Position numbers and translations under genes: made by a program. From positions 130,688-194,687 of the forward strand of contig CAWEQU010000003.1 of the NCBI GenBank assembly GCA_963811305.1: a stretch of DNA of 64,000 nucleotides, in the 5' to 3' direction. The notes under the pieces were generated by a model, which saw nothing but the letters and a program-made list of their open reading frames with translations, was not told the DNA's origin and did no database searches. This DNA is from an uncultured Chloroflexia bacterium. Its GTDB lineage: Bacteria > Chloroflexota > Chloroflexia > QHBQ01 > JADMIH01. Positions 1 to 49,738 of the stretch are shown piece after piece. Every line of letters starts with the position of its first letter. The stretch's first letter is position 1.

Positions 1-158
1 GCCTGGTCAGCATGGGGCTGACGGATGGGCAGGTGGCAGAGCGGCTTACCCTCAGCCCGCGCACCGTGCACCGTCACCTGTCGTCTGTGTACAGCAAGCT
101 TGGCGTCACTACTCGTACGGCGGCAGCACACTTCGCTACCGAGCACAGGTTGGTATAG
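1..158 (+). CDS. LuxR-family transcriptional regulator, C-terminal HTH fragment (5' end outside window)
   Basis: Frame 3 translates to LVSMGLTDGQVAERLTLSPRTVHRHLSSVYSKLGVTTRTAAAHFATEHRLV*. This is the LuxR-type HTH signature (LSPRE-V, TV--H, I--KL). Stop at 156-158. Confidence 0.7.
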   Translation, partial: LVSMGLTDGQVAERLTLSPRTVHRHLSSVYSKLGVTTRTAAAHFATEHRLV

Positions 159-190
159 GACGATGGACGATGGACGAAGGACGAAAGAAA
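159..190. repeat. 7-nt word tandem array (GGACGAT/GGACGAA)
   Basis: Direct reading of ggacgatggacgatggacgaaggacgaaag immediately after the LuxR stop. Confidence 0.8.
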
Positions 191-459
191 CTATCCTTTC
201 CTCGACCAGACTTATTACTTATCCATGCACGAACCTAATGGACGATGGAGGCGTAGAGTTGTAAATCAATTTTGGCATATATTTTGAGAGGATAATTGCA
301 GGGAAAAAGTGATGGGTAATCTTACCCATCCATTTTCTTTTGTCGATTTTTGTAAATTGGGTAATCCTGCTGATGTACCGGGGTAAGCCTGGATGTAGAC
401 TTAGGGCACAAGAAGCAGGCAGAATTAAACGTCACAACCAACCAGAAGGAAACAGGGAA

Positions 460-791
460 ATGAAGAAGCTTTTTACGACACTCATGGCATCAGCAGCGGT
501 CTTGGCAGCAACAGCAGTGGGTGTAGCGCCCGCTAACAAGGGTGATAGTGTAAATTGGGGCGGCGTAAGTCGCGGTACCCAGGGGTCGGTCAACTGGGGC
601 GCACCTGCACCCGGTAATGACAGCGTCAACTGGGGCTTCAACGCCCTGGGCAAGTCGCAGGCCAGCGTGAACTGGGCGCACCTGCACCCGGTAATGACAG
701 CGTCAACTGGGGCTTTCACGCCACCAACACATCGGCCAGCGTGAACTGGGGCGCACCCGCACCTGGTTCGGATAGCGTCAACTGGGGCTAA
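460..791 (+). CDS. Small secreted repeat protein: signal peptide plus about seven SVNWG motifs in ~26-aa units; one apparent -1 frameshift at a G-run near 672
   Basis: MKKLFTTLMASAAVLAATAVGVAPA is a signal peptide. It is followed by DSVNWG...GSVNWGAPAPGNDSVNWGFNALGKSQASVNW. The DNA repeat unit then continues in the -1 frame (GAPAPGNDSVNWGFHATNTSASVNWGAPAPGSDSVNWG*). The second unit has aactggg where the first has aactgggg. An RBS-like aggaaacaggga lies upstream. Confidence 0.55.
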
Positions 792-804
792 AGACAACGG
801 AGTG

Positions 805-850
805 CAATAAGATAGGGCACCTTCCAAGCGGGAGGTGCTCTATTTTTGTT
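805..850 (+). terminator. Rho-independent terminator-like hairpin plus T-run after the SVNWG gene
   Basis: ggcaccttccaagcgggaggtgctc stem-loop followed by tatttttgtttg. Confidence 0.45.
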
Positions 851-1009
851 TGTCGTAAATTCGGATCTTACCGTACAGACCTTCGCTTCAACCTCGGCAG
901 AACTGCTGCTTTGTATGATATAAAGCAGGCATGAATAAAGAAATCTGCTGCTACTGCACGGCGCGTTGGGGGCGAGCGAACAATTCGCGCCCCTTCTCCC
1001 ACTCCTCCA

Positions 1010-1621
1010 GGAGATATAACCTCCACACGCTCGACTTCGAGGGGCATGGCCGTGCGCCTATGCAAGAGCGCCCGTTTCGCATCGAGCACTTCACGGAGAA
1101 CGTCCGCAGCTACCTGGCGCAGCACGCCATCGAGCGCACGCACATATTCGGCTACAGCATGGGCGGGTACGTCGCCTGCACCCTGGCTATCACGCACCCC
1201 GATCTTGTGGCGAGCATAGCGACGCTTGGCACGAAGTTCCACTGGGACCCTCAGACTGCCGAGCGTGAGGTAGGCTTCCTCGACACGGAGAAGATAGCGG
1301 CAAAGGTCCCCCACTTCGCCCGCGCCCTCACCGAGCGCCACACCACATCGGGTTGGGAGGCGGTTGTGAACAAGACCGCCGATCTACTTGTGTCCCTGGG
1401 GGAGGTTAGGGGTCTGCGGGCCGAGAAGCTGGGACAGGTTGCCTGTCGCGTAAGGGTTATGGTAGGTGACCGCAATTCGACGGTTGGCGTACCGGAAGCG
1501 TATGAGGTGTACCGCGCCCTCCCGCAAGGCGAGACTGGAGGTGCTGCCTGGGACGCGGCATGAGCTGGAGAGGGTTGAGGTGGGGAGGTTGGCGGGGGCG
1601 CTGGTGGGGTTCTTTGGGTAA
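1010..1621 (+). pseudogene. alpha/beta-hydrolase fold protein (GYSMGG nucleophile elbow), disrupted by at least two frameshifts; N-terminal HG-box remnant upstream in another frame
   Basis: GHGRAP...IFGYSMGGYVA...DRNSTV matches alpha/beta hydrolase. The C-terminus continues in another frame (ARLEVLPGTRHELERVEVGRLAGALVGFFG*, stop 1619-1621). The N-terminal LLLLHGALGASEQFAPLLPLLQE lies in a third frame at about 942-1015. Confidence 0.55.
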
Positions 1622-8754: not shown

Positions 8755-8770
8755 ACTTTGAACTTTGAAC
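8722..8770. repeat. (TTGAACC/TCGAACC)n word array
   Basis: cttgaacctcgaacctcgaactttgaaccttgaactttgaactttgaac. Confidence 0.85.
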
Positions 8771-9475
8771 AAACACATGCAGCTTGACCTGAGACAAATA
8801 TGGAGCGGCCTGCGTAAGCGGTGGTGGCTGGCGTTGTTGGTGATGCTGTCGGCTGCCGCCGTCGCGTACCTTTACACCAATGCACAGCCGCGTGTGTATC
8901 AGGCGCAGGTGACACTTGTGGCAAAGCCTGTACCTCCTGATAATGGTCTCATAGAGGCGATCAAGAAAACTATGAGCACCTACGCCCAGGAGCTGGGGAG
9001 CAAGAGCCTCTGGACGTCTGTGGTAGATGGTAATTTGATGCGCACGGTGGACCTGAGCGCATTGTCCGGCCAGATAAAGGTGCAGCCACGTCCCGACCAA
9101 AACTCACTCGTTATGACGGTGGATAATCAAGACAGTGTGTTGGCCGCACAGATAGCAGAGGCTATCTCGCAGGCGTTCGTGGAGCGCCAGACCGCAGAGA
9201 ACCAGGCTCTGGCGAGTGGTAATAAGGTCGTGTGGGTGATAGCCCAGGCTGCCGAAGTGCCCTCTCAGCCCTACCAGCCTCGCCCGCTCTTGTATGCGGG
9301 TGCGGCGGCTTTATTTGGCCTTATACTCGGCCTTCTATTGGCAATTGGGCTTGAGTTGCTGGACACGACGATTAAGACTCCTGCGGATATCAAGCAGTAT
9401 ACGGAGCTTAACACGCTGGGGATAATTCCACGTGCTAGCAAGGACGAAGGACGAAGGACGAAGGACGACGGATAG
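8765..9475 (+). CDS. Polysaccharide co-polymerase (Wzz/CpsC-like), paralogue 2
   Basis: N-terminal TM (WWLALLVMLSAAAVAYLY), and C-terminal TM plus LELLDTTIKTPADIKQYTELNTLGIIPR. The final residues (KDEGRRTKDDG*) are encoded by the (GGACGAA)n array. Confidence 0.6.
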   Translation: MNKHMQLDLRQIWSGLRKRWWLALLVMLSAAAVAYLYTNAQPRVYQAQVTLVAKPVPPDNGLIEAIKKTMSTYAQELGSKSLWTSVVDGNLMRTVDLSALSGQIKVQPRPDQNSLVMTVDNQDSVLAAQIAEAISQAFVERQTAENQALASGNKVVWVIAQAAEVPSQPYQPRPLLYAGAAALFGLILGLLLAIGLELLDTTIKTPADIKQYTELNTLGIIPRASKDEGRRTKDDG

Positions 9476-9528
9476 GGATTCTCTATCACCTATTACCAGC
9501 TACCAGCCACTAACTACCGGAGGGACAA

Positions 9529-10233
9529 TTGGCAAGACGAGTCAAAACTAAGGAAGAGAGCAGCGCGGGCCTGGTTGCCCTTACGGAGCCGAGGTCGGCG
9601 GCGGCGGAGGCGTTTCGCGCTTTGCGGACCAATATTCAGTTCGCCAGCCCCGATAAGCCTGTGCATACCATACTGGCGACCTCTACCAGTCCCGATGACG
9701 GCAAATCCACGACCATCGCCAATCTTGCGATAACGTTCGCCGCCGCCGGGTCGCCTACGATATTGGTAGACGCCGATTTGCGCCGCCCGCACCTGCACAA
9801 GCTCTTCGGCCTCTCCAACGAATCGGGCCTTACTACTCTCGTGACGGAGATGGCGCGCAAGGATGGGGGCCAGGACGTTGACCTGCCTTTGCAGGATACG
9901 GAAGTGCCTAATCTGCAGGTGCTGACGAGTGGACCTGTGCCGCCTAACCCCGCCGAGATATTGGCTTCGCAGCGCATGGCCGATATACTGGCCCTCCTCC
10001 GTAACAAAGCTGAATACGTGCTGATAGATACCCCTCCCGTGATCGCCGTGACGGATGCAGCCGTGCTGGCTCCCCGCGTAGATGGAGTCTTCCTGGTGTT
10101 AAATGCAGGTAAGACGCGACGCGACCTTGCCTCTAAAGCACGCGACATCCTCCGGCAAGTAAACGCCAACCTCCTGGGCGTAGTGCTGAACAACGCCAAG
10201 CTCGATAAGAGCGCGTACGAGTATTATGGCTAG
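9529..10233 (+). CDS. BY-kinase (CpsD/CapB-type tyrosine-protein kinase); putative TTG start
   Basis: Walker A PDDGKSTT, Walker A' VDADLRRP, Walker B VLIDTPP. Lies downstream of the CpsC-like genes. Confidence 0.8.
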   Translation: MARRVKTKEESSAGLVALTEPRSAAAEAFRALRTNIQFASPDKPVHTILATSTSPDDGKSTTIANLAITFAAAGSPTILVDADLRRPHLHKLFGLSNESGLTTLVTEMARKDGGQDVDLPLQDTEVPNLQVLTSGPVPPNPAEILASQRMADILALLRNKAEYVLIDTPPVIAVTDAAVLAPRVDGVFLVLNAGKTRRDLASKARDILRQVNANLLGVVLNNAKLDKSAYEYYG

Positions 10234-10312
10234 GAATCAGGAGTCAGGAATCAGTAGAATATGAGTCCTAATCCCTGATTCCTGACTCCTGACCCCTAAT
10301 CCCTGACCCCTA
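10234..10312. repeat. Inverted word arrays forming a hairpin (GAATCAG/GAGTCAG with CTGATTC/CTGACCC)
   Basis: ggaatcaggagtcaggaatcag...aatccctgattcctgactcctgacccctaatccctgacccc, between the kinase and the phosphatase. Confidence 0.85.
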
Positions 10313-10314
10313 AA

Positions 10315-11094
10315 GTGATAGACATCCACACTCATATCATCCCTGACCTCGATGATGGGCCGCCCGATATGAAGACTTCGGTTGGTATGGGGCGCGTGGC
10401 GGCTGAGGAAGGGATAGAGGCTATCATCTCCACATCGCATAGCGAAGAAGCCTCCAATGTAGGGCTTGAAGCTATGCAGGCACGCTTGCTGGCTGTGCAG
10501 GGAGCGTGGGTCGCGGCGGGATTGAATATACGCCTTGAGCTGGGGGTGGAGATTTTCTTGCGACCTGACACGCCCGCTGCTCTCAAGTCGGGCGCGCTCT
10601 GGACGCTTGCGGGAAGCCGGTACGTATTGGTCGAAACTCCGTACCAGCCGTGGCCCACCTACGCCGACCAGACGCTATTCAACCTGCAACTGGCTGGATA
10701 CATCCCTATCCTCGCCCACCCTGAACGCTATATCCCTATTCAAAATGACCCCAACCGCATGTATGCTCTTGTGGAGAGGGGTGTGCTGGCGCAGGTGACG
10801 GCAGCCGCGCTCCTGGGCGAGCATGGGCCTGCATCGAGGCGATGCGCCGAGACGTTGGTGCGTCACAACCTGGCTCATTTCCTTGCGTCGGACGCTCACG
10901 GGCTGACGGTGCGGAGGCGTATGCCGCAATTGCGCGAAGCGTTGAGAGTCGCTGAAGGATTGGTAGGTGCGGAAGCTGCTCGTGCGTTAGTTCAGGACAA
11001 CCCTGCAAGGATACTTGCGAATATGCCTCTCGAAGTCACCCCTGAAAGGGTAAGCGGGAAGAAGTGGTCTTTAGGGGGCCTGTTCAGAGGCTAA
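10315..11094 (+). CDS. PHP-family protein-tyrosine phosphatase (CpsB/YwqE-type); GTG start
   Basis: N-terminal VIDIHTHIIPDLDDGP matches the CpsB MIDIHxHILPGxDDG motif. Confidence 0.75.
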   Translation: MIDIHTHIIPDLDDGPPDMKTSVGMGRVAAEEGIEAIISTSHSEEASNVGLEAMQARLLAVQGAWVAAGLNIRLELGVEIFLRPDTPAALKSGALWTLAGSRYVLVETPYQPWPTYADQTLFNLQLAGYIPILAHPERYIPIQNDPNRMYALVERGVLAQVTAAALLGEHGPASRRCAETLVRHNLAHFLASDAHGLTVRRRMPQLREALRVAEGLVGAEAARALVQDNPARILANMPLEVTPERVSGKKWSLGGLFRG

Positions 11095-45442: not shown

Positions 45443-45964
45443 CTATCGGGCGATACGTCCTCGAATACTCTTGCTGACGACGAGTGCGCCCAGGCTGATA
45501 AGTACCAGGGCGACCATGCCTAGCAGCCATAGCTCAGATAGTGAGCTATTTCCCGTCCCAGGCATACCGCCGGGAGTTGTAGACGTGACTTCGATCTCGC
45601 CCATCATGCCATGCCCTTTGTGATCATCTACCGGGCAGTACATCTCCCAGTCGCCGGCTACCGGGAATACATATTCGGCAGTGCGCGTCTCTCCGGGCAT
45701 GAGATTTGTATCGAAGAGATGCTGCTCGATACCCCTGTCTTCAAGCTCCACTACGAGATTGTGTGGCACGGTGCCGCCGTTGTGTACGGTGAAATGTACC
45801 ATCTGGCCCGCCGAAACGGTGACACTCGATGGTGTGATCTTGAACTCGCTGAGCGTAATATCTAGCTCCTGGCCGTCCTGGGCGAGAGCGAATGAGGGGA
45901 TGAGGAGCACGGCTGCCAGCCACGCGATTCCCAGCAAGCTGCGGGTGAATGAACGACAAGTCAT
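45443..45964 (-). CDS. Membrane-anchored cupredoxin (type-1 blue copper protein, plastocyanin/azurin-like) with signal peptide and C-terminal TM
   Basis: Type-1 Cu ligand pattern H…C…H…M (PHNLVV…YCPVDDHKGHGMMG). N-terminal signal MTCRSFTRSLLGIAWLAAVLLIPSFALA. Confidence 0.65.
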   Translation of the reverse strand: MTCRSFTRSLLGIAWLAAVLLIPSFALAQDGQELDITLSEFKITPSSVTVSAGQMVHFTVHNGGTVPHNLVVELEDRGIEQHLFDTNLMPGETRTAEYVFPVAGDWEMYCPVDDHKGHGMMGEIEVTSTTPGGMPGTGNSSLSELWLLGMVALVLISLGALVVSKSIRGRIAR

Positions 45965-46116
45965 GATTCTGGCCCTCCTAGTTTGTGGATGTTGGTCTAT
46001 TGCAGCGCTGATATAGGGGCTAACGTTTCTATGTGCGGAAAAGTAGCGGGCAGGCAAGCAAAAAGACCGGCGATTTCTGCCGGTCTTTTTGCGGGGCGGA
46101 GGGATAGAAGTTGAAA

Positions 46117-46824
46117 TTAGAAGCCGGTGGCATACCACCTGAAGAATAGACTTTCAGGAACCACGATGGGCGTCCCGGGGCCTTCATGTATCCAGATTTC
46201 CAGGGCGCGGTAACGCTCAGGACCTGGCAGGCGCTCGGCTATACACGACATCTGGGCACCTACGGCGGGCTGGCCGTGTATCTCGGTTGCAGCGTCGATG
46301 ACCACCTCGGTGTCATCGCCGATCAGCCATTCGTTGCCGTCGATGCGCGTGATGGTCCCACTGTAGTGCTCCAATGGCGTGCGCGTATCGGGCTGCCGGA
46401 GGAGGGGCGTCGTAAACACCAGCACCAGGGCTACCAGCGCGGCCAGCACGGGCAGGACAAAGACCAGCTTGCGGCGTGGTGCTTGCAAGAGCGTATCGAG
46501 CCAGGAACGGCGTTGTGGCTGAGGGGGCAATATTCGCGGGCGACCGATCTCCTGAGCAGGGGAGGTCGTGGCGTCCTCTATAGTGCGTGGCTCCTGGGTG
46601 GTAGCGTGAAGCTGCTCTTTCATACGGGCAAGGGCCTTCGAAGATAGCGCCGGGGAAGGCACGGCGCGGATGGCGAGGTTGAGCCGCAGGAGGGCTTCCA
46701 GCTCCGCGGCGTGCTGGGGGAACTGCTCCAGCACCAATTCGATGCTGTGACCGGACATGACCTGCCGCGACGCCTCGCTGAATGCTTCTTCAACTCGCGG
46801 GTTGCTTTCAAACATTGTTGCCAT
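46117..46824 (-). CDS. Putative membrane anti-sigma factor (single TM) cognate to the upstream ECF sigma
   Basis: Overlaps the sigma gene end, has a single TM (LVFVLPVLAALVALVLVF), and operon position. Confidence 0.4.
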   Translation of the reverse strand: MATMFESNPRVEEAFSEASRQVMSGHSIELVLEQFPQHAAELEALLRLNLAIRAVPSPALSSKALARMKEQLHATTQEPRTIEDATTSPAQEIGRPRILPPQPQRRSWLDTLLQAPRRKLVFVLPVLAALVALVLVFTTPLLRQPDTRTPLEHYSGTITRIDGNEWLIGDDTEVVIDAATEIHGQPAVGAQMSCIAERLPGPERYRALEIWIHEGPGTPIVVPESLFFRWYATGF

Positions 46825-46846
46825 AGTTCCTTCTAGCCGGGGTCTA

Positions 46847-47407
46847 TCATGTAGCCTCTCCGATGGCGACGAACGCACGGCGGAGGGCCTCCATTCCCCG
46901 GTAATATAACCCTTTTACTGAAGGGAGGGTCCGTTCGAGCATGAGCGCCACGTCCGGTAAGTCCCAACCCTCGATTATATGTAGCAAAATCACCTGGCGC
47001 TGCTCGTCCGTCACCATTTCCAGGGCCTGTCGCAGTTGCTCGCGGTCCAATATCCCTTCAAAGCGCGGGTCGTAAGCGCCCGGCTCGCTGGCAGGCTCGA
47101 CGTCGAGCCTCTCCTCAAGAGAGACGTGGGGGTGACGCTTACGTGCCCTGTGATGGTCTATGACCAGGTTCCGAGCGATGCGAAAGAGCCAGGCTTGAAA
47201 GCTGGCCTGCTCTACCCTGAACGAACCGATATGCCTGACCATTCTTGCGAGTACCTCTGCAACCAGGTCCTCTGCGTAGGTGGCGTCGTGCAATTGGTAG
47301 AAAGCGAACCGGTACAGGGCCGGTGCGTAATGATGCACAACGTATTCAACCGCTTCGGAATCGCCCCGCTTCAAGCCAGCCAGGAGAGCAATGTCATCCA
47401 TGCATCG
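46847..47407 (-). CDS. ECF sigma factor (sigma-70 group IV)
   Basis: Region 2 YRFAFYQLHDATYAEDLVAEV and region 4 EGWDLPDVALMLERTLPSVKGLYYRGMEAL. Confidence 0.8.
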   Translation of the reverse strand, partial: RCMDDIALLAGLKRGDSEAVEYVVHHYAPALYRFAFYQLHDATYAEDLVAEVLARMVRHIGSFRVEQASFQAWLFRIARNLVIDHHRARKRHPHVSLEERLDVEPASEPGAYDPRFEGILDREQLRQALEMVTDEQRQVILLHIIEGWDLPDVALMLERTLPSVKGLYYRGMEALRRAFVAIGEAT

Positions 47408-47742
47408 TGGGGCGGTGGTGGTAGTGTAGGGCAAGGCCCAGAGTTGATCTTGGTACATCTAACCCCGTCGGCATAGGTTGTAGAATGCGGGCTTCGGCGA
47501 TATCAGGCACGGCGTTCTGGCTTGTAGCGTTACTCATAATGTCTAACGTGCCAGAGGCCCGAAAAGTACCGGGTGATTTGACGACTTTTACAAGAGCATA
47601 AGTTGTGCCTGGGAAGAATCGCACAGCCTTGTGTATCCACGACCCTGGTGTTATAATCAATTTCGGGCAGCGATAGCTGCCTGGTGGAACCCCGGACAGC
47701 GTGGTCCGGCCCCCGCCTCTCGCCAGCATAGGAGGAATTGGA

Positions 47743-48713
47743 TGAACGACGCATTGCCACTCCTTTGTTACTTTGAAGGTAAGGTTATGCCTCTCAGCGA
47801 GGCTAAAGTGGGCATACTTACCCACGCCCTGAGCTACGGAACCGGATGTTTCGAGGGCATACGAGCCTATTACAATAAAGAGCAGGACCAGCTCTACGGC
47901 TTTCGCGTGCGCGAGCATTACGAGCGCTTGCAGCAATCAAGCCGCGTCCTGCTTATGGACCTCCCCCATTCGCCGGAGCAACTCGTAAGTATCACTAACG
48001 ACCTGCTGAGACGCAGTGGCATCCGCCAGGACGCATATATGCGTCCTATGGTTTACAAGGCTGACGAAGTCATAGGAGTCAGGCTGCACAATCTCCGCAC
48101 CGAGATGTATGTCACGGTACAGCCCTTTGGCAATTACATAGACATAGACCGCGCTCTCGAAGTGGGCGTATCTTCCTGGAAGCGTATTGACGACAATATG
48201 ATACCGGCCCGCGCCAAGATAACGGGTACATACGTCAACTCAGCCTTCGCCAAGAGCGAAGCCAACATGAATGGCTTCGATGAGGCGATTATGCTAGACC
48301 ACGCTGGGCACGTTTCGGAAGGCTCCGCCGAGAACTTATTCATGATACGTAACGGTGTAGCCTACACACCGCCCGTCACCGAGAACATACTTGAGGGGAT
48401 CACCCGCCTCACGATTATGACCTTGCTGAGCGAAGAGCTGCATATCCCGCTTGTCGAGCGCGTCATAGACCGTACGGAGCTATATGTCTGCGACGAGCTA
48501 ATACTGTGCGGCACGGGCGCGCAGATAGCCCCCGTAGGCTCGGTAGACCACCGCCCCGTCGGCAATGGCGGCGTGGGTAAGATAGGCCATGCGCTCCAGG
48601 AGCTTTATTTTGATGTGGTACGTGGCAATGTACCAAAGTACAAAGAGTGGTGCAGCCCCGTTTATGCAGAAGCTCGCCGCCCCGCCGACGTGCGAATGGC
48701 AGTAGCCTCATAA
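47743..48713 (+). CDS. ilvE: Branched-chain amino acid aminotransferase (class IV PLP enzyme)
   Basis: Full-length BCAT similarity incl. EGSAENLF and catalytic Lys region. Confidence 0.8.
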
Positions 48714-48770
48714 TTTTGGATTTTGGATTTTCGATTTCGATAGTTGATCCAAAATCCAAAATCCAAAATC
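48714..48770. repeat. Inverted TTTTGGA/TCCAAAA word arrays (hairpin) between ilvE and the bPH gene
   Basis: ttttggattttggattttcgatttcgatagttgatccaaaatccaaaatccaaaatc. Confidence 0.85.
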
Positions 48771-48772
48771 AT

Positions 48773-49738
48773 ATGTCTTTTTGGCGTCCGCAATCTTCAC
48801 CAACCAGGCTCGCGTTGTTCATACTGCCGGTGCTATGTATAGCATTGGCGGTATGGATGTGGCTGCTTATCGCCGCACGCGTGCCGGTGGTGGTGTTCGA
48901 CGCCGGGGTGTTTCTGCTGGGCCTGGAGCTGTTCCTGGCGCTCACGCTGGCGGGGATGCTCGCTTATATGGGGTGGTGCGTCTCTACCATGCGATACCGT
49001 ATTGACGACGACGCTGTGGCGGTACGGTGCGGGGGGGTCAAGTACGTTGTCCCCCTGGAAAGCATTATTGCCGTATATGCGCCGGGGGCCACCGTCAACG
49101 GCGAGCCGATAAGCGTCATATGGAAGCGCACAACGCCCCCTCTGCCTGGCTACGTGATTGGCTCAGGCATCAGTATGAAGCTTGGGAACGTCATATCGGT
49201 GGCGACGAGGCCGCCCTCTGAGCAGGTGTTTATTGTCACGCGTGAGGCAGCTTTCGGGGTCTCTCCTCAAAGCGGGCTTGAGTTCGTCTCCCAGCTTAAC
49301 CAGAAGCTGAAACTGGCGGAGCGTGACGAGGAGTTAGATGAGCAATTGGAATACTCAGGCGAGGGCGCGTACCTGGAGCTATCGGGAATTAGCGGGTGGG
49401 GAGCAACCCTCTGGGCAGACCCTTTAGCGCGACCCCTTCTCTTTATAGGGCTGGCTATTTGCGCGGCTATCTTTCTTTACCTGGGATTTGTGTACGGCAG
49501 CCTCCCCACGAACCTCTTACTGCACTGGAACGCACTCGGCCAGCCGGACCGCGTGGGTGACCCTATAGAGCTGCTGCGCCTGCCCGCGTTCGCCCTGGGT
49601 ATATGGCTGGTCAATGCTGTGGTGGCCTGGGTAGTGCGCCCCAGGGAGCGCGCCGCTACCCTCTTCCTGCTGGGGGGAGCGGTTGCGGTGCAGGTGGTGT
49701 TCGCGGCAGCGGTGCTCTCTATCGTCCTGCGCTCATAG
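48773..49738 (+). CDS. Membrane protein with bacterial PH (bPH_2/YdbT-like) domain
   Basis: TM pairs flanking YRIDDDAVAVRCGGVKYVVPLESIIAV (bPH-like). Confidence 0.5.
   Translation: MSFWRPQSSPTRLALFILPVLCIALAVWMWLLIAARVPVVVFDAGVFLLGLELFLALTLAGMLAYMGWCVSTMRYRIDDDAVAVRCGGVKYVVPLESIIAVYAPGATVNGEPISVIWKRTTPPLPGYVIGSGISMKLGNVISVATRPPSEQVFIVTREAAFGVSPQSGLEFVSQLNQKLKLAERDEELDEQLEYSGEGAYLELSGISGWGATLWADPLARPLLFIGLAICAAIFLYLGFVYGSLPTNLLLHWNALGQPDRVGDPIELLRLPAFALGIWLVNAVVAWVVRPRERAATLFLLGGAVAVQVVFAAAVLSIVLRS

What the first reader, a model, noticed from the sequence alone, without database searches (positions are those of the whole stretch)
460..791. Secreted tandem-repeat peptide with seven SVNWG motifs next to a LuxR-type regulator
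A Sec signal peptide is followed by ~26-aa units, each carrying two SVNWG motifs (GAPAPGNDSVNWGFNALGKSQASVNWG repeated). The gene lies immediately downstream of a LuxR-family HTH regulator and ends in a clean terminator. Highly regular Trp-containing repeats in a small secreted protein could be a multi-core pheromone or signal precursor, or a cell-surface binding module. One G-run indel breaks the frame, consistent with the window-wide indel problem.
Basis: partly seen in the sequence, partly recalled or inferred. Interest (0 to 1): 0.55.

Follow-up and report, generated by a model that had tools for sequence, protein, structure and literature searches.

The report
Regulator-controlled secreted VNW-repeat propeptide
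A small exported protein made of seven copies of the five-residue motif SVNWG belongs to a rare, undescribed family in soil Chloroflexota, and its gene is the conserved target of the large sensor-regulator next door, an arrangement like the peptide-pheromone cassettes of Gram-positive bacteria built from different parts.

Summary
Window 460-791 (+) encodes a signal peptide followed by seven SVNWG motifs. Six are intact; the fourth is broken by one missing G at 674-676. An intact 110-aa copy at 96% identity exists elsewhere, dN/dS is 0.10-0.18, and the neighbouring hydrolase gene carries three more indels, so the frameshift is most likely a sequencing error.

The gene belongs to a rare family of about 30 clusters with no Pfam or NCBIfam model. 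Members are 60-110 aa, with a signal peptide and 4-7 copies of [DAN][ST]VNW[GNST]. Nearly all end exactly at the last motif.

In at least six lineages, with peptide identity down to 35%, the gene lies just downstream of an orthologous NB-ARC + TPR + LuxR-HTH regulator of about 830 aa. It is preceded by a conserved two-box operator and a -10-like hexamer at a fixed distance. The geometry fits an activator-dependent promoter, and the gene is monocistronic with its own terminator.

Function is inferred, not shown. My best reading (0.4) is a regulator-activated, Sec-exported multi-copy propeptide cut into short peptides ending in SVNWG, probably a cell-cell signal. The main rival is an uncleaved beta-rich structural or amyloid-like protein. 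No peptidase, exporter or modifying enzyme is conserved nearby.

The parts
3..158 (+). 3' end of the regulator gene (GerE/LuxR helix-turn-helix; stop at 156-158). Full-length orthologues are 831-869 aa: NB-ARC NTPase, then TPR_12 repeats, then GerE.
   Evidence: Searches give the window translation LVSMGLTDGQVAERLTLSPRTVHRHLSSVYSKLGVTTRTAAAHFATEHRLV, with the recognition helix SPRTVxRHLSS invariant in all orthologues. One search gives the Pfam domains: NB-ARC 31-248, TPR_12 x4, GerE 771-825. Searches give the contexts.
312..329 (.). Box 1: the perfect palindrome ATGGGTA-ATCT-TACCCAT, the proposed upstream binding site of the LuxR-type regulator.
   Evidence: The arms are invariant and the 4-nt centre varies in 7 aligned loci. 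The box is also present in the distant loci L008, L009-11, L022, L026 and L048. It occurs once in the 64-kb window and once per locus.
357..375 (+). Box 2: TTGGGTAATCCTGCTGATG, a degenerate copy of box 1 that overlaps the -35 position. Proposed promoter-proximal activator site, centred about 42 nt before the inferred transcription start.
   Evidence: Conserved as TTGRGTAATnnTrCyGATG in all regulator-linked lineages. Box1-to-box2 start spacing is 23, 34 or 43-45 nt, i.e. steps of about one helical turn. The value 23 is inferred from the miscalled ORF of P0008.
396..401 (+). -10-like hexamer TAGACT (family pattern TAnAnT). The transcription start is inferred near 408.
   Evidence: T, A, A and T are invariant in alignment A2. 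The hexamer lies 20-21 nt after box 2 in every lineage. No full sigma-70 consensus promoter was found, which fits dependence on an activator. No transcript data.
444..458 (+). Purine-rich Shine-Dalgarno region (AGAAGGAAACAGGGA) before the ATG.
   Evidence: Read directly. Relatives have AGAAGGAGAGAGGGA or AGGAGGCGGGGGA at the same place.
460..791 (+). Coding sequence of the VNW-repeat propeptide. It is 110 aa once one G is restored; as assembled it is a 94-aa truncated ORF ending at 744.
   Evidence: reading frames and repair. (intact 110-aa homologue at 96% identity). (dN/dS 0.10-0.18). (P0037, the truncated product, is on record from a 216-kb public contig).
460..534 (+). Predicted Sec signal peptide: MKK, then an 18-20-residue uncharged core, then A-P-A with cleavage inferred before N26.
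   Evidence: Sequence inspection. The same n/h/c layout is present in all family members. AlphaFold models residues 3-19 as a helix. SignalP was not available.
544..788 (+). Seven [D/G/A]SVNWG motifs separated by alternating linkers (APAPGxD and F[NH]xxxxxxA). The last motif is followed directly by the stop codon.
674..676 (+). G-run of 3 where all other motifs and all homologues have 4. This is the frameshift site.
   Evidence: Three further indels lie in the next gene (942, 1010, 1534) relative to L002.
809..856 (+). Intrinsic terminator-like hairpin (17 pairs) plus T-run. It makes the peptide gene monocistronic.
   Evidence: It is conserved in L006, L002 and L003. Other lineages have their own hairpin after the gene.

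Best explanation
**Shown or strongly supported.**
- Window 460-791 is a protein-coding gene under purifying selection. Its product is an 81-110-aa protein with an N-terminal Sec-type signal peptide and 5-7 copies of SVNWG.
- It is a monocistronic unit. Its promoter region carries two conserved boxes of the GGGTAA-N-TTACCC type and a -10-like hexamer at a fixed distance.
- It is genetically coupled, across deep divergence, to an orthologous NB-ARC + TPR + LuxR-HTH (STAND/LAL-type) regulator encoded directly upstream.

**Inferred mechanism.**
1. Once its TPR sensor is occupied and the NTPase domain oligomerises, the regulator binds box 1 and box 2 on the same face of the DNA. It then activates a promoter that lacks a usable -35 element, with box 2 centred near -42.
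2. The propeptide is exported by Sec.
3. Signal peptidase and extracellular proteases cut it after each motif. This releases several short peptides that all end in ...SVNWG-COOH, or the pentapeptide itself.
4. These peptides act as an extracellular signal. Most likely they are sensed again by the TPR domain of the same regulator, which would give an autoinduction loop like PlcR-PapR or Rap-Phr with tandem pheromone copies.
For: - **Real gene.** There is an intact homologue. Motif codons differ synonymously. dN/dS is 0.10-0.18.
- **Family.** About 30 clusters share a signal peptide plus 4-7 [DAN][ST]VNW[GNST] motifs.
- **Beads-on-a-string pattern.** V, N and W are invariant in 170 motifs. Linkers are 2-17 residues with no conserved residue. 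In P0024 and P0028 two motifs abut directly (SVNWGSVNWN). In 27 of 32 proteins the stop codon follows one residue after the last Trp.
- **Copy number changes in frame.** It is 5 versus 7 motifs between two contigs whose regulators are 100% identical.
- **Coupling to the regulator.** Orthologues at 58-60% identity over 831 aa lie upstream in the window lineage and in L005, L008, L009-11, L026 and L045-47. Their other neighbours differ.
- **Operator.** Box 1 and box 2 are invariant where the rest of the spacer has diverged. Their spacing is phased at 23, 34 or 43-45 nt. TAnAnT lies 20-21 nt after box 2. The operator is unique in the 64 kb and in each locus. In L008 it stays with the peptide gene although another ORF intervenes. 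In L048 it is present although the regulator is not adjacent.
- **HTH-operator link.** In about 10 unrelated metagenome loci a different, 538-aa regulator with a related GerE HTH (47-48% identity) ends right at the same kind of operator, and there it drives a methyltransferase.
- **Independent transcription.** A terminator lies between the regulator and the peptide gene in L004, and there is no consensus promoter.
- **TPR type.** The nearest solved TPRs are LGN/GPSM2, Pins and kinesin light chain, which are peptide-binding.
- **No stable fold.** The best pLDDT was 63.6, with the other four models at 38-46. A short-linker member gave 56.7, and its mature part is about 46-53 with almost no secondary structure.
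- **RRNPP signature.** Four of the five published computational criteria are met (PMC10075063). Tandem pheromone copies in Sec-exported propeptides are documented (PMC11343458).
Against: - There is no experimental datum of any kind: no transcript, no peptide, no binding.
- No protease, Opp-type importer or exporter is conserved next to the cassette.
- The receptor is not an RRNPPA protein. It is 831-869 aa rather than 250-500, and it has a STAND NTPase and a C-terminal LuxR HTH.
- The TPR region is no more divergent than the rest of the regulator (59-61% against 60-64%), so there is no sign of receptor-ligand diversification.
- A sub-family (L007, L044) has neither the regulator nor the operator nearby.
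- One AlphaFold model places every motif in a beta strand, which also fits a structural protein.
- The operator was found only in front of the peptide gene, so no further regulon, as expected for quorum sensing, is visible in the DNA available.
Confidence: 0.4

Rival explanations
1. Uncleaved structural protein. The mature ~85-aa product stays intact and each SVNWG forms a short beta strand. This builds a beta-meander, beta-solenoid or functional-amyloid-like fibre, or a matrix or surface layer. The LuxR-type regulator switches it on, as CsgD switches on curli CsgA (the CsgD/CsgA parallel is from my own knowledge).
For: - The best AlphaFold model puts all seven motifs in strands (E30-36, 41-46, 55-60, 66-72, 81-86, 91-96, 106-109).
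- The top Foldseek hits are FapC amyloid, ice-binding beta-helices and bactofilin, but none is significant.
- Asn, Gly, Ser and an aromatic residue are conserved in short repeats, as in amyloid subunits.
- The two-motif period is regular within each protein.
- Cell-wall genes (LysM proteins, an amidase, GT4, an SLH/BNR protein) lie near some members.
Against: - Four of the five models have pLDDT 38-46. The short-linker member shows almost no secondary structure. All Foldseek hits have E > 0.3 and TM < 0.35.
- Linker length varies from 2 to 17 residues across homologues, and some motifs abut directly. This is unlike the constant rung length of curli or Fap repeats.
- There is no match to Curlin or other repeat families.
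- No nucleator, chaperone or anchoring gene is conserved nearby.
- The hydrophobic content is only Val and Trp.
Confidence: 0.25
2. Released peptides that act as an effector, not as an autoinducer. The propeptide is exported and cut as in the main model, but the peptides act on other targets: competitors, partner organisms, or a surface receptor of the producer. The adjacent regulator responds to an unrelated ligand.
For: - It rests on the same anatomy as the main model.
- The only operator found is the one before the peptide gene. This fits a dedicated pathway-specific activator of the LAL type whose sole output is the peptide.
- The TPR region shows no faster divergence.
- The regulator-less sub-family shows that the peptide can function without the adjacent receptor.
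Against: - No immunity, exporter or receptor gene is conserved nearby.
- The peptides are neutral to acidic, not amphipathic and without Cys. This is unlike typical antimicrobial peptides.
- The tight receptor-propeptide adjacency across six or more lineages is the hallmark of cognate pairs.
Confidence: 0.2
3. Multi-core RiPP precursor. The Trp, Asn or Ser of each motif is modified (cross-link, prenylation and so on) by enzymes encoded elsewhere before or after export.
For: - Repeated invariant Trp-containing cores with variable spacers resemble multi-core precursors.
- A methyltransferase lies upstream of the regulator in the window lineage.
Against: - No radical-SAM, P450, YcaO, lanthipeptide, prenyltransferase or peptidase-ABC gene is conserved beside the gene in any lineage. 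The methyltransferase, Ldi-like and hydrolase neighbours are confined to the closely related window lineage.
- A Sec signal peptide, which takes the unfolded precursor out of the cytoplasm, is atypical for bacterial RiPPs (my own knowledge).
Confidence: 0.07
4. Dead gene or assembly artefact. The frameshift is real, so the locus is a pseudogene in this genome, or the repeat is mis-assembled.
For: - The public assembly carries the truncated 94-aa ORF (P0037).
- Another family member, P0035, is also frameshifted in its assembly.
Against: - The deletion lies in a homopolymer.
- The sequence downstream of the break is still 95% identical to the intact L006 copy, with mostly synonymous changes.
- The adjacent hydrolase gene has three more indels in 690 nt. 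The window shows further chains of overlapping same-strand ORFs. This pattern is typical of consensus errors, not of one decayed gene.
Confidence: 0.05

Closest known systems
RRNPPA peptide quorum-sensing cassettes (Rap-Phr, PlcR-PapR, NprR-NprX, AimR-AimP), especially propeptides with tandemly duplicated pheromones (Phr of phages phi3T and phi105; PMC11343458)
   Same: - The receptor gene and a small Sec-exported propeptide gene are direct neighbours.
- The receptor has a TPR domain.
- The candidate mature peptide sits at the very C-terminus and is repeated inside the propeptide.
- The propeptide size (60-110 aa) lies within or at the edge of the 50-120 aa range.
- A palindromic receptor box lies upstream of the peptide gene, as in PlcR-papR (my own knowledge).
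   Different: - The receptor is 831-869 aa, with an N-terminal NB-ARC (STAND) NTPase and a C-terminal LuxR/GerE HTH. RRNPPA receptors are 250-500 aa with an N-terminal XRE-type HTH plus TPR.
- There was no sequence match to any RRNPPA structure.
- The phylum is Chloroflexota, not Bacillota.
- There are 4-7 motif copies instead of 1-4.
- Processing, import and binding are untested.
MalT / LAL (large ATP-binding LuxR-family) STAND transcription activators
   Same: - The domain order is P-loop NTPase, then TPR-like sensor, then LuxR HTH.
- Several phased binding sites lie upstream of a promoter with a poor -35, which implies ligand-driven oligomerisation and cooperative binding (the MalT mechanism is from my own knowledge).
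   Different: - Known ligands are small molecules (maltotriose for MalT) or unknown.
- No LAL is known to be paired with a secreted repeat peptide. I found no such case in the paper library.
- TPR_MalT scores below its Pfam cut-off here (31.8 against 45); the sensor is TPR_12-type.
Curli CsgA / Fap FapC functional-amyloid subunits under the LuxR-family regulator CsgD
   Same: - It is a small Sec-exported protein of imperfect short repeats with conserved Asn, Gly and Ser.
- It is controlled by a LuxR-type HTH regulator.
- One AlphaFold model is all-beta.
   Different: - There is no sequence or significant fold similarity.
- The repeat spacing is not constant across homologues.
- There are no accessory nucleator or secretion genes.
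- The AlphaFold models are not confident.
Class IIa (pediocin-like) bacteriocins such as leucocin A and carnobacteriocin B2, which contain ...CSVNWG...
   Same: The pentapeptide SVNWG occurs in them. These papers were the only biological literature hits for the string.
   Different: - It occurs once, inside a YGNGV/disulfide N-terminal sheet.
- The leader is a double-glycine leader, not a Sec signal.
- There are no Cys residues and no YGNGV here.
- This is a five-residue coincidence.

Membership tests
RRNPP(A) quorum-sensing cassette (five-criterion signature of PMC10075063) | Propeptide is small (10-100 aa) | tested here: met
   Family members are 60-110 aa. The window copy is 110 aa after repair and its closest relatives are 81-84 aa. 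The window copy is slightly above the 100-aa default.
RRNPP(A) quorum-sensing cassette (five-criterion signature of PMC10075063) | Propeptide carries a Sec/SPI signal sequence | tested here: met
   Judged by inspection only. All members have MKK, then an 18-20-residue uncharged core, then a small-residue c-region (A-P-A). AlphaFold models this N-terminal segment as a helix. There is no Cys lipobox and no twin-Arg. SignalP was not available.
RRNPP(A) quorum-sensing cassette (five-criterion signature of PMC10075063) | Receptor is about 250-500 aa | tested here: not met
   The regulators are 831-869 aa.
RRNPP(A) quorum-sensing cassette (five-criterion signature of PMC10075063) | Receptor harbours TPRs | tested here: met
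   TPR_12 E = 4.6e-35 in 4 stretches, plus TPR_10, TPR_2, TPR_1 and TPR_7.
RRNPP(A) quorum-sensing cassette (five-criterion signature of PMC10075063) | Receptor and propeptide genes are direct neighbours | tested here: met
   True for the window, L001-L005, L009-L011, L026 and L045-47. L008 has one ORF in between. L007, L044 and L048 are not adjacent.
RRNPP(A) quorum-sensing cassette (five-criterion signature of PMC10075063) | Receptor is homologous to Rap/Rgg/NprR/PlcR/PrgX/AimR | tested here: not met
   No RRNPPA chain appears among the 48 PDB sequence matches. Pfam shows NB-ARC plus GerE instead of an N-terminal XRE HTH.
RRNPP(A) quorum-sensing cassette (five-criterion signature of PMC10075063) | Mature peptide is released, re-imported and bound by the receptor's TPR domain | not testable with these tools
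   This needs peptidomics, binding assays and reporter assays. Complex prediction was not possible with the tools allowed.
STAND / LAL-type LuxR regulators (MalT-like); applies to the neighbouring regulator | N-terminal P-loop NTPase of the STAND class | tested here: met
   NB-ARC 31-248 (36 bits, cut-off 23.5) and AAA_22.
STAND / LAL-type LuxR regulators (MalT-like); applies to the neighbouring regulator | C-terminal LuxR/GerE helix-turn-helix | tested here: met
   GerE 771-825, E = 1.9e-15. The window holds this part at 3-158.
STAND / LAL-type LuxR regulators (MalT-like); applies to the neighbouring regulator | Repeat-type sensor domain between the NTPase and the HTH | tested here: met
   TPR_12 repeats at about 450-720. 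TPR_MalT is below its cut-off.
Functional amyloid subunits (curli CsgA / FapC) | Sequence match to Curlin or Fap repeat models | tested here: not met
   The only Pfam hit is DUF6302, which is sub-threshold. The only NCBIfam hit is WGxxGxxG at E = 3.8.
Functional amyloid subunits (curli CsgA / FapC) | Constant repeat (rung) length and a confident beta-solenoid model | tested here: inconclusive
   Linkers are 2-17 residues across the family but regular within a protein. AlphaFold gave one all-beta model at pLDDT 63.6, the others at 38-46, and 56.7 for a second member. Foldseek E > 0.3.
Functional amyloid subunits (curli CsgA / FapC) | Adjacent nucleator, chaperone or secretion genes | tested here: not met
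   None in any of the contexts read.
Multi-core RiPP precursor | Maturation enzyme genes conserved beside the precursor | tested here: not met
   Apart from the regulator, the neighbours differ between lineages. No rSAM, P450, YcaO, LanM or prenyltransferase families are listed.
Class IIa bacteriocin | YGNGV box with a disulfide, and a double-glycine leader | tested here: not met
   The sequence has no Cys, no YGNGV and a Sec-type leader.

The most novel reading that the evidence does not exclude
This would be a peptide-based cell-cell signalling system in Chloroflexota whose receptor is a STAND/LAL-type ATPase-TPR-LuxR activator, not an RRNPPA protein. The adjacent Sec-exported propeptide would deliver 4-7 copies of a VNW-core pheromone per molecule and feed back on its own promoter through a two-box operator. 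That would be an independent invention of receptor-propeptide quorum sensing outside Bacillota. It would also give the first peptide ligand for the very large and mostly orphan LAL/STAND regulator class.
Probability: 0.3. Interest if true: 0.85.

Novelty: new variant of a known kind. Interest (0 to 1): 0.6.

Why it matters
- **Where peptide signalling is known.** Genetically encoded peptide pheromones with cytoplasmic TPR receptors are known almost only from Bacillota and their phages. The standard detector looks for receptors of 250-500 aa and would miss this cassette (PMC10075063).
- **What a signal would mean.** If the VNW peptides are signals, they extend peptide quorum sensing to Chloroflexota, an abundant and poorly studied soil phylum. 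They would also give a ligand class to STAND/LAL LuxR regulators, most of which have no known inducer.
- **Value whatever the function.** The work defines an undescribed protein family: about 30 clusters, no Pfam or NCBIfam model and no literature. It also defines a precise operator-promoter module (ATGGGTA-N4-TACCCAT, then TTGRGTAAT..GATG, then 20-21 nt, then TAnAnT) that can be tested directly. The same operator type serves a second, smaller LuxR-type regulator that drives a methyltransferase in other bacteria.
- **Practical point.** The frameshift in this window is most likely a homopolymer error, and the gene should be annotated as intact.

Tried and rejected
1. **Family libraries.** Pfam, NCBIfam and PADLOC scans of the repaired peptide gave no family. 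DUF6302 (16.6 bits) and WGxxGxxG (E = 3.8) are noise.
2. **Literature.** The string 'SVNWG' returned only class IIa bacteriocin papers and unrelated acronyms. Keyword searches for a Chloroflexi, LuxR or STAND propeptide precedent found nothing relevant.
3. **Structured RNA.** An Rfam scan of window 1-1500 gave only a chance SurA hit at 14 bits, so a structured-RNA reading is rejected.
4. **Antisense ORF.** The ORF at 432-827 (131 aa) is rejected. Repeats stay open in several frames. The synonymous pattern, signal peptide, ribosome-binding site, promoter and terminator all fit the + strand.
5. **Box 1 as the regulator's terminator.** The scan lists it as a weak hairpin plus T-run on both strands. 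This is rejected because:
   - the arms are invariant in sequence, with no compensatory changes;
   - the T-run is absent in L001, L004 and L005;
   - L004 has its own strong terminator upstream, and L005 has a 20-pair hairpin there.
6. **Fold.** Two AlphaFold runs and one Foldseek PDB search gave no confident fold and no significant match.
7. **Left flank of the same genome.** The exact look-up of the window's 94-aa ORF and of P0008 returned 'not on record'. The left flank is therefore inferred from relatives with 89% identical regulators.
8. **Receptor-ligand co-divergence.** The TPR region is as conserved as the other domains, and there are too few sequences for covariation.
9. **Operator scan of metagenomes.** Besides true family loci, it returned marine-sediment contigs with the same pattern in unrelated, AT-rich contexts. 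I did not pursue these.
Full report
**1. The observation**

Window 460-791 (+) starts with ATG. In that frame it reads MKKLFTTLMASAAVLAATAVGVAPANKGDSVNWGGVSRGTQGSVNWGAPAPGNDSVNWGFNALGKSQASVNW and then runs out of frame. The remainder, GAPAPGNDSVNWGFHATNTSASVNWGAPAPGSDSVNWG-stop, lies in the frame that begins at 459.

The break is at AACTGGGCGC (670-679). Every other motif has AACTGGGGC, so one G is missing from the run at 674-676. Restoring it gives a 110-aa protein with seven SVNWG motifs and a TAA at 789-791.

The six intact motifs are the only SVNWG strings in the six-frame translation of the 64-kb window. Tandem Repeats Finder reports a 77-nt period with 2.6 copies and score 257.

The 3' end of a GerE/LuxR HTH gene stops at 158. 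A 17-pair hairpin with a T-run follows the peptide gene at 809-846.

**2. A real gene, and probably not a real frameshift**

A search of 5.8 billion proteins returned four homologues. One is an intact 110-aa protein at 96% identity (P0001, locus L006).

Across homologues and across repeats the motif is kept at the amino-acid level while its codons differ: Ser AGT/AGC/TCG, Val GTA/GTC/GTG/GTT, Asn AAT/AAC. Pairwise dN/dS in the + frame is 0.10-0.18. The antisense ORF at 432-827 is a by-product of the repeat.

Relative to L002, the α/β-hydrolase gene just downstream (931-1563) carries three more indels in 690 nt. The window's ORF list shows further chains of overlapping same-strand ORFs. The parsimonious reading is homopolymer-type consensus error.

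The truncated 94-aa product is on record from a 216-kb public contig (P0037). The error, or the mutation, is therefore in the deposited assembly.

**3. The family**

I searched 1.84 billion representative proteins with a profile of the first hits, then ran a second word-indexed search with a 15-sequence profile. This gave about 30 clusters of 60-110-aa proteins. One hit, a 1005-aa eukaryote-like repeat protein, is unrelated.

All members share the same plan:
- MKK, then an uncharged stretch of 18-20 residues, then a short small-residue segment;
- 4-7 copies of [DAN][ST]VNW[GNST].

V (166 of 170), N and W (170 of 170) are essentially invariant. The residue after W is uniform within most proteins (G, S, N or T). 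Linkers are 2-17 residues with no conserved position. In P0024 and P0028 two motifs abut directly (SVNWGSVNWN). In 27 of 32 proteins the stop codon comes one residue after the last Trp, and most exceptions are contig-end truncations.

Copy number changes in frame. L001 has 5 motifs and L004 has 7, although their regulators are 100% identical.

Named sources are Chloroflexota or 'Chloroflexia' MAGs, and the sample names (forest, farmland) point to soil. Pfam, NCBIfam and PADLOC have no model for the family. The literature search found nothing on it.

**4. The regulator link**

In relatives, the gene cut by the window's left edge is an 831-835-aa protein with NB-ARC (31-248), four TPR_12 stretches (about 450-720) and GerE (771-825).

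Orthologues at 58-60% identity over the full length lie directly upstream of family members with quite different peptides:

| Locus | Peptide motif | Peptide identity to the window copy |
|---|---|---|
| L005 | DSVNWG | 59% |
| L009-L011 | TVNWN | 35% |
| L026 | SVNWGY | not determined |
| L045-47 | SVNWT | 35% |
| L008 (one ORF in between) | SVNWN | 44% |

Sources.

The other neighbours differ between lineages:
- window lineage: Ldi-like, methyltransferase and hydrolase genes;
- L009: sulfur-carrier and LysM genes;
- L008: BNR/SLH genes;
- L045: a DEAD helicase gene.

The coupling is therefore specific to the regulator and the peptide. It is not universal. L007 and L044 lie in a GT4-TsaE-TsaD neighbourhood with no regulator within reach. 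L048 has an amidase upstream.

Relatives show none there.

**5. The operator-promoter module**

Aligning the intergenic regions of seven loci shows two invariant blocks in otherwise diverged DNA:
- Box 1 is ATGGGTA-N4-TACCCAT (window 312-329). It is a perfect palindrome with invariant arms and a variable centre.
- Box 2 is TTGRGTAATnnTrCyGATG (window 357-375). It is a degenerate copy of box 1.

Both boxes are present in the distant loci L008, L009-11, L022, L026 and L048, and with a degenerate left arm in L045. They can even be read in the miscalled N-terminal extensions of P0004 and P0008, where MGNITHP...DWVIL[PL]M is the translation of the two boxes.

The start-to-start spacing is 23, 34 or 43-45 nt. 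These steps of about one helical turn point to proteins bound on one face of the DNA. A TAnAnT hexamer lies 20-21 nt after box 2 in every lineage (window 396-401, TAGACT). The position 17 nt upstream of it has no -35 consensus, and the simple sigma-70 scan finds no complete promoter.

If transcription starts about 7 nt after the hexamer (near 408), box 2 is centred near -42. That is the geometry of class II activators, and the LuxR lux box sits at -42.5 (my own knowledge).

The operator occurs once in the 64-kb window and once per locus, always before the peptide gene. In L008 it stays with the peptide gene, not with the intervening ORF. In L004 a strong terminator separates the regulator from box 1.

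A metagenome-wide scan for the operator gave an independent link between operator and HTH. It returned two more VNW-peptide loci. It also returned about ten loci in which a different, 538-aa regulator ends immediately before the same kind of operator. Only the GerE domain of that regulator is related (47-48% identity, recognition helix ERTVDRHVSN against SPRTVHRHLSS). There the operator precedes a methyltransferase gene.

I conclude, by inference from comparative sequence, that the adjacent regulator activates the peptide gene directly.

**6. What the product does**

This is the uncertain step. Four things favour a string of short functional units rather than a folded domain:
- the invariant-core and free-linker pattern;
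- the abutting motifs;
- the exact C-terminal ending of the protein at the last motif;
- the lack of a stable predicted fold. The first AlphaFold run gave 63.6 for the best model and 38-46 for the other four. The second run, on a short-linker member, gave 56.7, with the mature part at 46-53 and nearly no secondary structure.

Cutting after each motif would release peptides that all end in ...SVNWG, including the last one without any cut.

The layout matches RRNPPA systems. In those, a Sec-exported propeptide of 50-120 aa sits beside a TPR-containing transcription factor. The pheromone is usually at the propeptide's C-terminus and sometimes occurs in 1-4 tandem copies (PMC11343458). Four of the five computational criteria of RRNPP_detector are met, and receptor size is not (PMC10075063).

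The regulator's TPRs are closest to LGN/GPSM2, Pins and kinesin light chain, which bind extended peptides. This is consistent with the model but generic.

Several points count against it:
- no importer or protease is conserved nearby;
- the receptor belongs to another superfamily (STAND/LAL);
- its TPR region diverges no faster than its other domains;
- a sub-family lacks the regulator;
- no regulon beyond the peptide gene is visible.

The main rival is an uncleaved β-rich structural or amyloid-like protein. One AlphaFold model makes every motif a strand, and the non-significant Foldseek hits are FapC and β-helical ice-binding proteins. Variable repeat spacing, weak model confidence and the absence of accessory genes weaken this reading.

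A RiPP reading lacks any conserved maturase gene.

**7. Verdict**

The finding is real and more interesting than a single odd ORF. It is an undescribed, rare family of secreted VNW-repeat peptides in Chloroflexota, with a conserved dedicated STAND-LuxR activator and a well-defined operator.

- The anatomy and the regulatory link are well supported (about 0.8).
- The signalling or propeptide mechanism is a reasoned hypothesis (0.4 for the full chain).
- The system works like an RRNPPA cassette but is not a member of that family.

Noticed in passing
window 158-250: A heptamer tandem array GGACGAT x3.9 starts at the regulator's stop codon. Relative to L002 the window has two extra heptamers and a 61-nt insert (186-246) bounded by GGACGAT. 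L008 has an analogous TTTTGGA array after the regulator stop, with its reverse complement just before box 1. These flank a 1.3-kb insert that holds a 296-aa ORF with no Pfam hit. The spacer between regulator and operator seems to be a hot spot for insertion.
   Followed up: partly
window 931-1563, and 8765-11094, 45443-47458, 47631-49738: The α/β-hydrolase gene next to the peptide has indels at 942 (-1), 1010 (-2) and 1534 (+1) relative to L002. Several chains of adjacent or overlapping same-strand ORFs elsewhere in the window look like further frameshifts. This fits an error-prone assembly.
   Followed up: partly
P0035 (ENA, 43-kb contig); no locus fetched: A second family member is frameshifted inside its repeats in another assembly (...DSVNWSRPGGTSIASTGAL). 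Either these repeats are error-prone in assembly, or frame loss recurs in the family.
   Followed up: no
L007 9640-10000 and L044 3300-3586: The sub-family without the regulator lies in a conserved GT4-TsaE-TsaD neighbourhood and lacks box 1 and box 2. Both loci carry several GTAGTAC/GTACTAC motifs upstream. L007 also has the palindrome TACGTAAAATTACGTA, which has the same GTAA-NN-TTAC core as box 1. This may reflect a different regulator.
   Followed up: partly
L007 10439-10512 and 12693-16602: A tRNA-Ala(GGC) gene follows the peptide gene directly. A Trypco1 gene and a 1161-aa CHAT protease-SBP_bac_5 (peptide-binding) fusion lie 2.4 kb downstream. The protease and peptide-binding pair is suggestive, but it was seen in one locus only.
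   Followed up: no
L012 2133-4697 (also L015, L019, L023, L031, L032, L035, L037, L043; L041 is similar): A 538-aa TPR-like + GerE regulator ends right at a box1/box2 operator, which is followed by a SAM-dependent methyltransferase gene. In L041 a similar operator precedes an α/β hydrolase, with no GerE match found there. This is a second regulator family that uses the same operator type. In the window lineage a methyltransferase and an α/β hydrolase also flank the cassette.
   Followed up: partly
L013-L021, L025, L029; L018, L027, L028, L030, L034, L038, L040, L042: The operator pattern also matches AT-rich marine-sediment contigs with no LuxR gene nearby. L028 and L042 carry it at both ends of a ~2-kb contig. 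L042 has an 82-nt terminal direct repeat, so it may be circular. I cannot explain these hits.
   Followed up: partly
P0013 (L045-L047): JGI names this family member 'Spy/CpxP family protein refolding chaperone'. Nothing in the sequence supports that. It looks like a spurious automatic annotation that could spread.
   Followed up: no
L009 4552-6969: A second STAND regulator (HTH_3 + NB-ARC + TPR, 805 aa, 40% identical to the cassette regulator) lies directly upstream of the cassette regulator. It could be a paralogous or hierarchical regulator pair.
   Followed up: no
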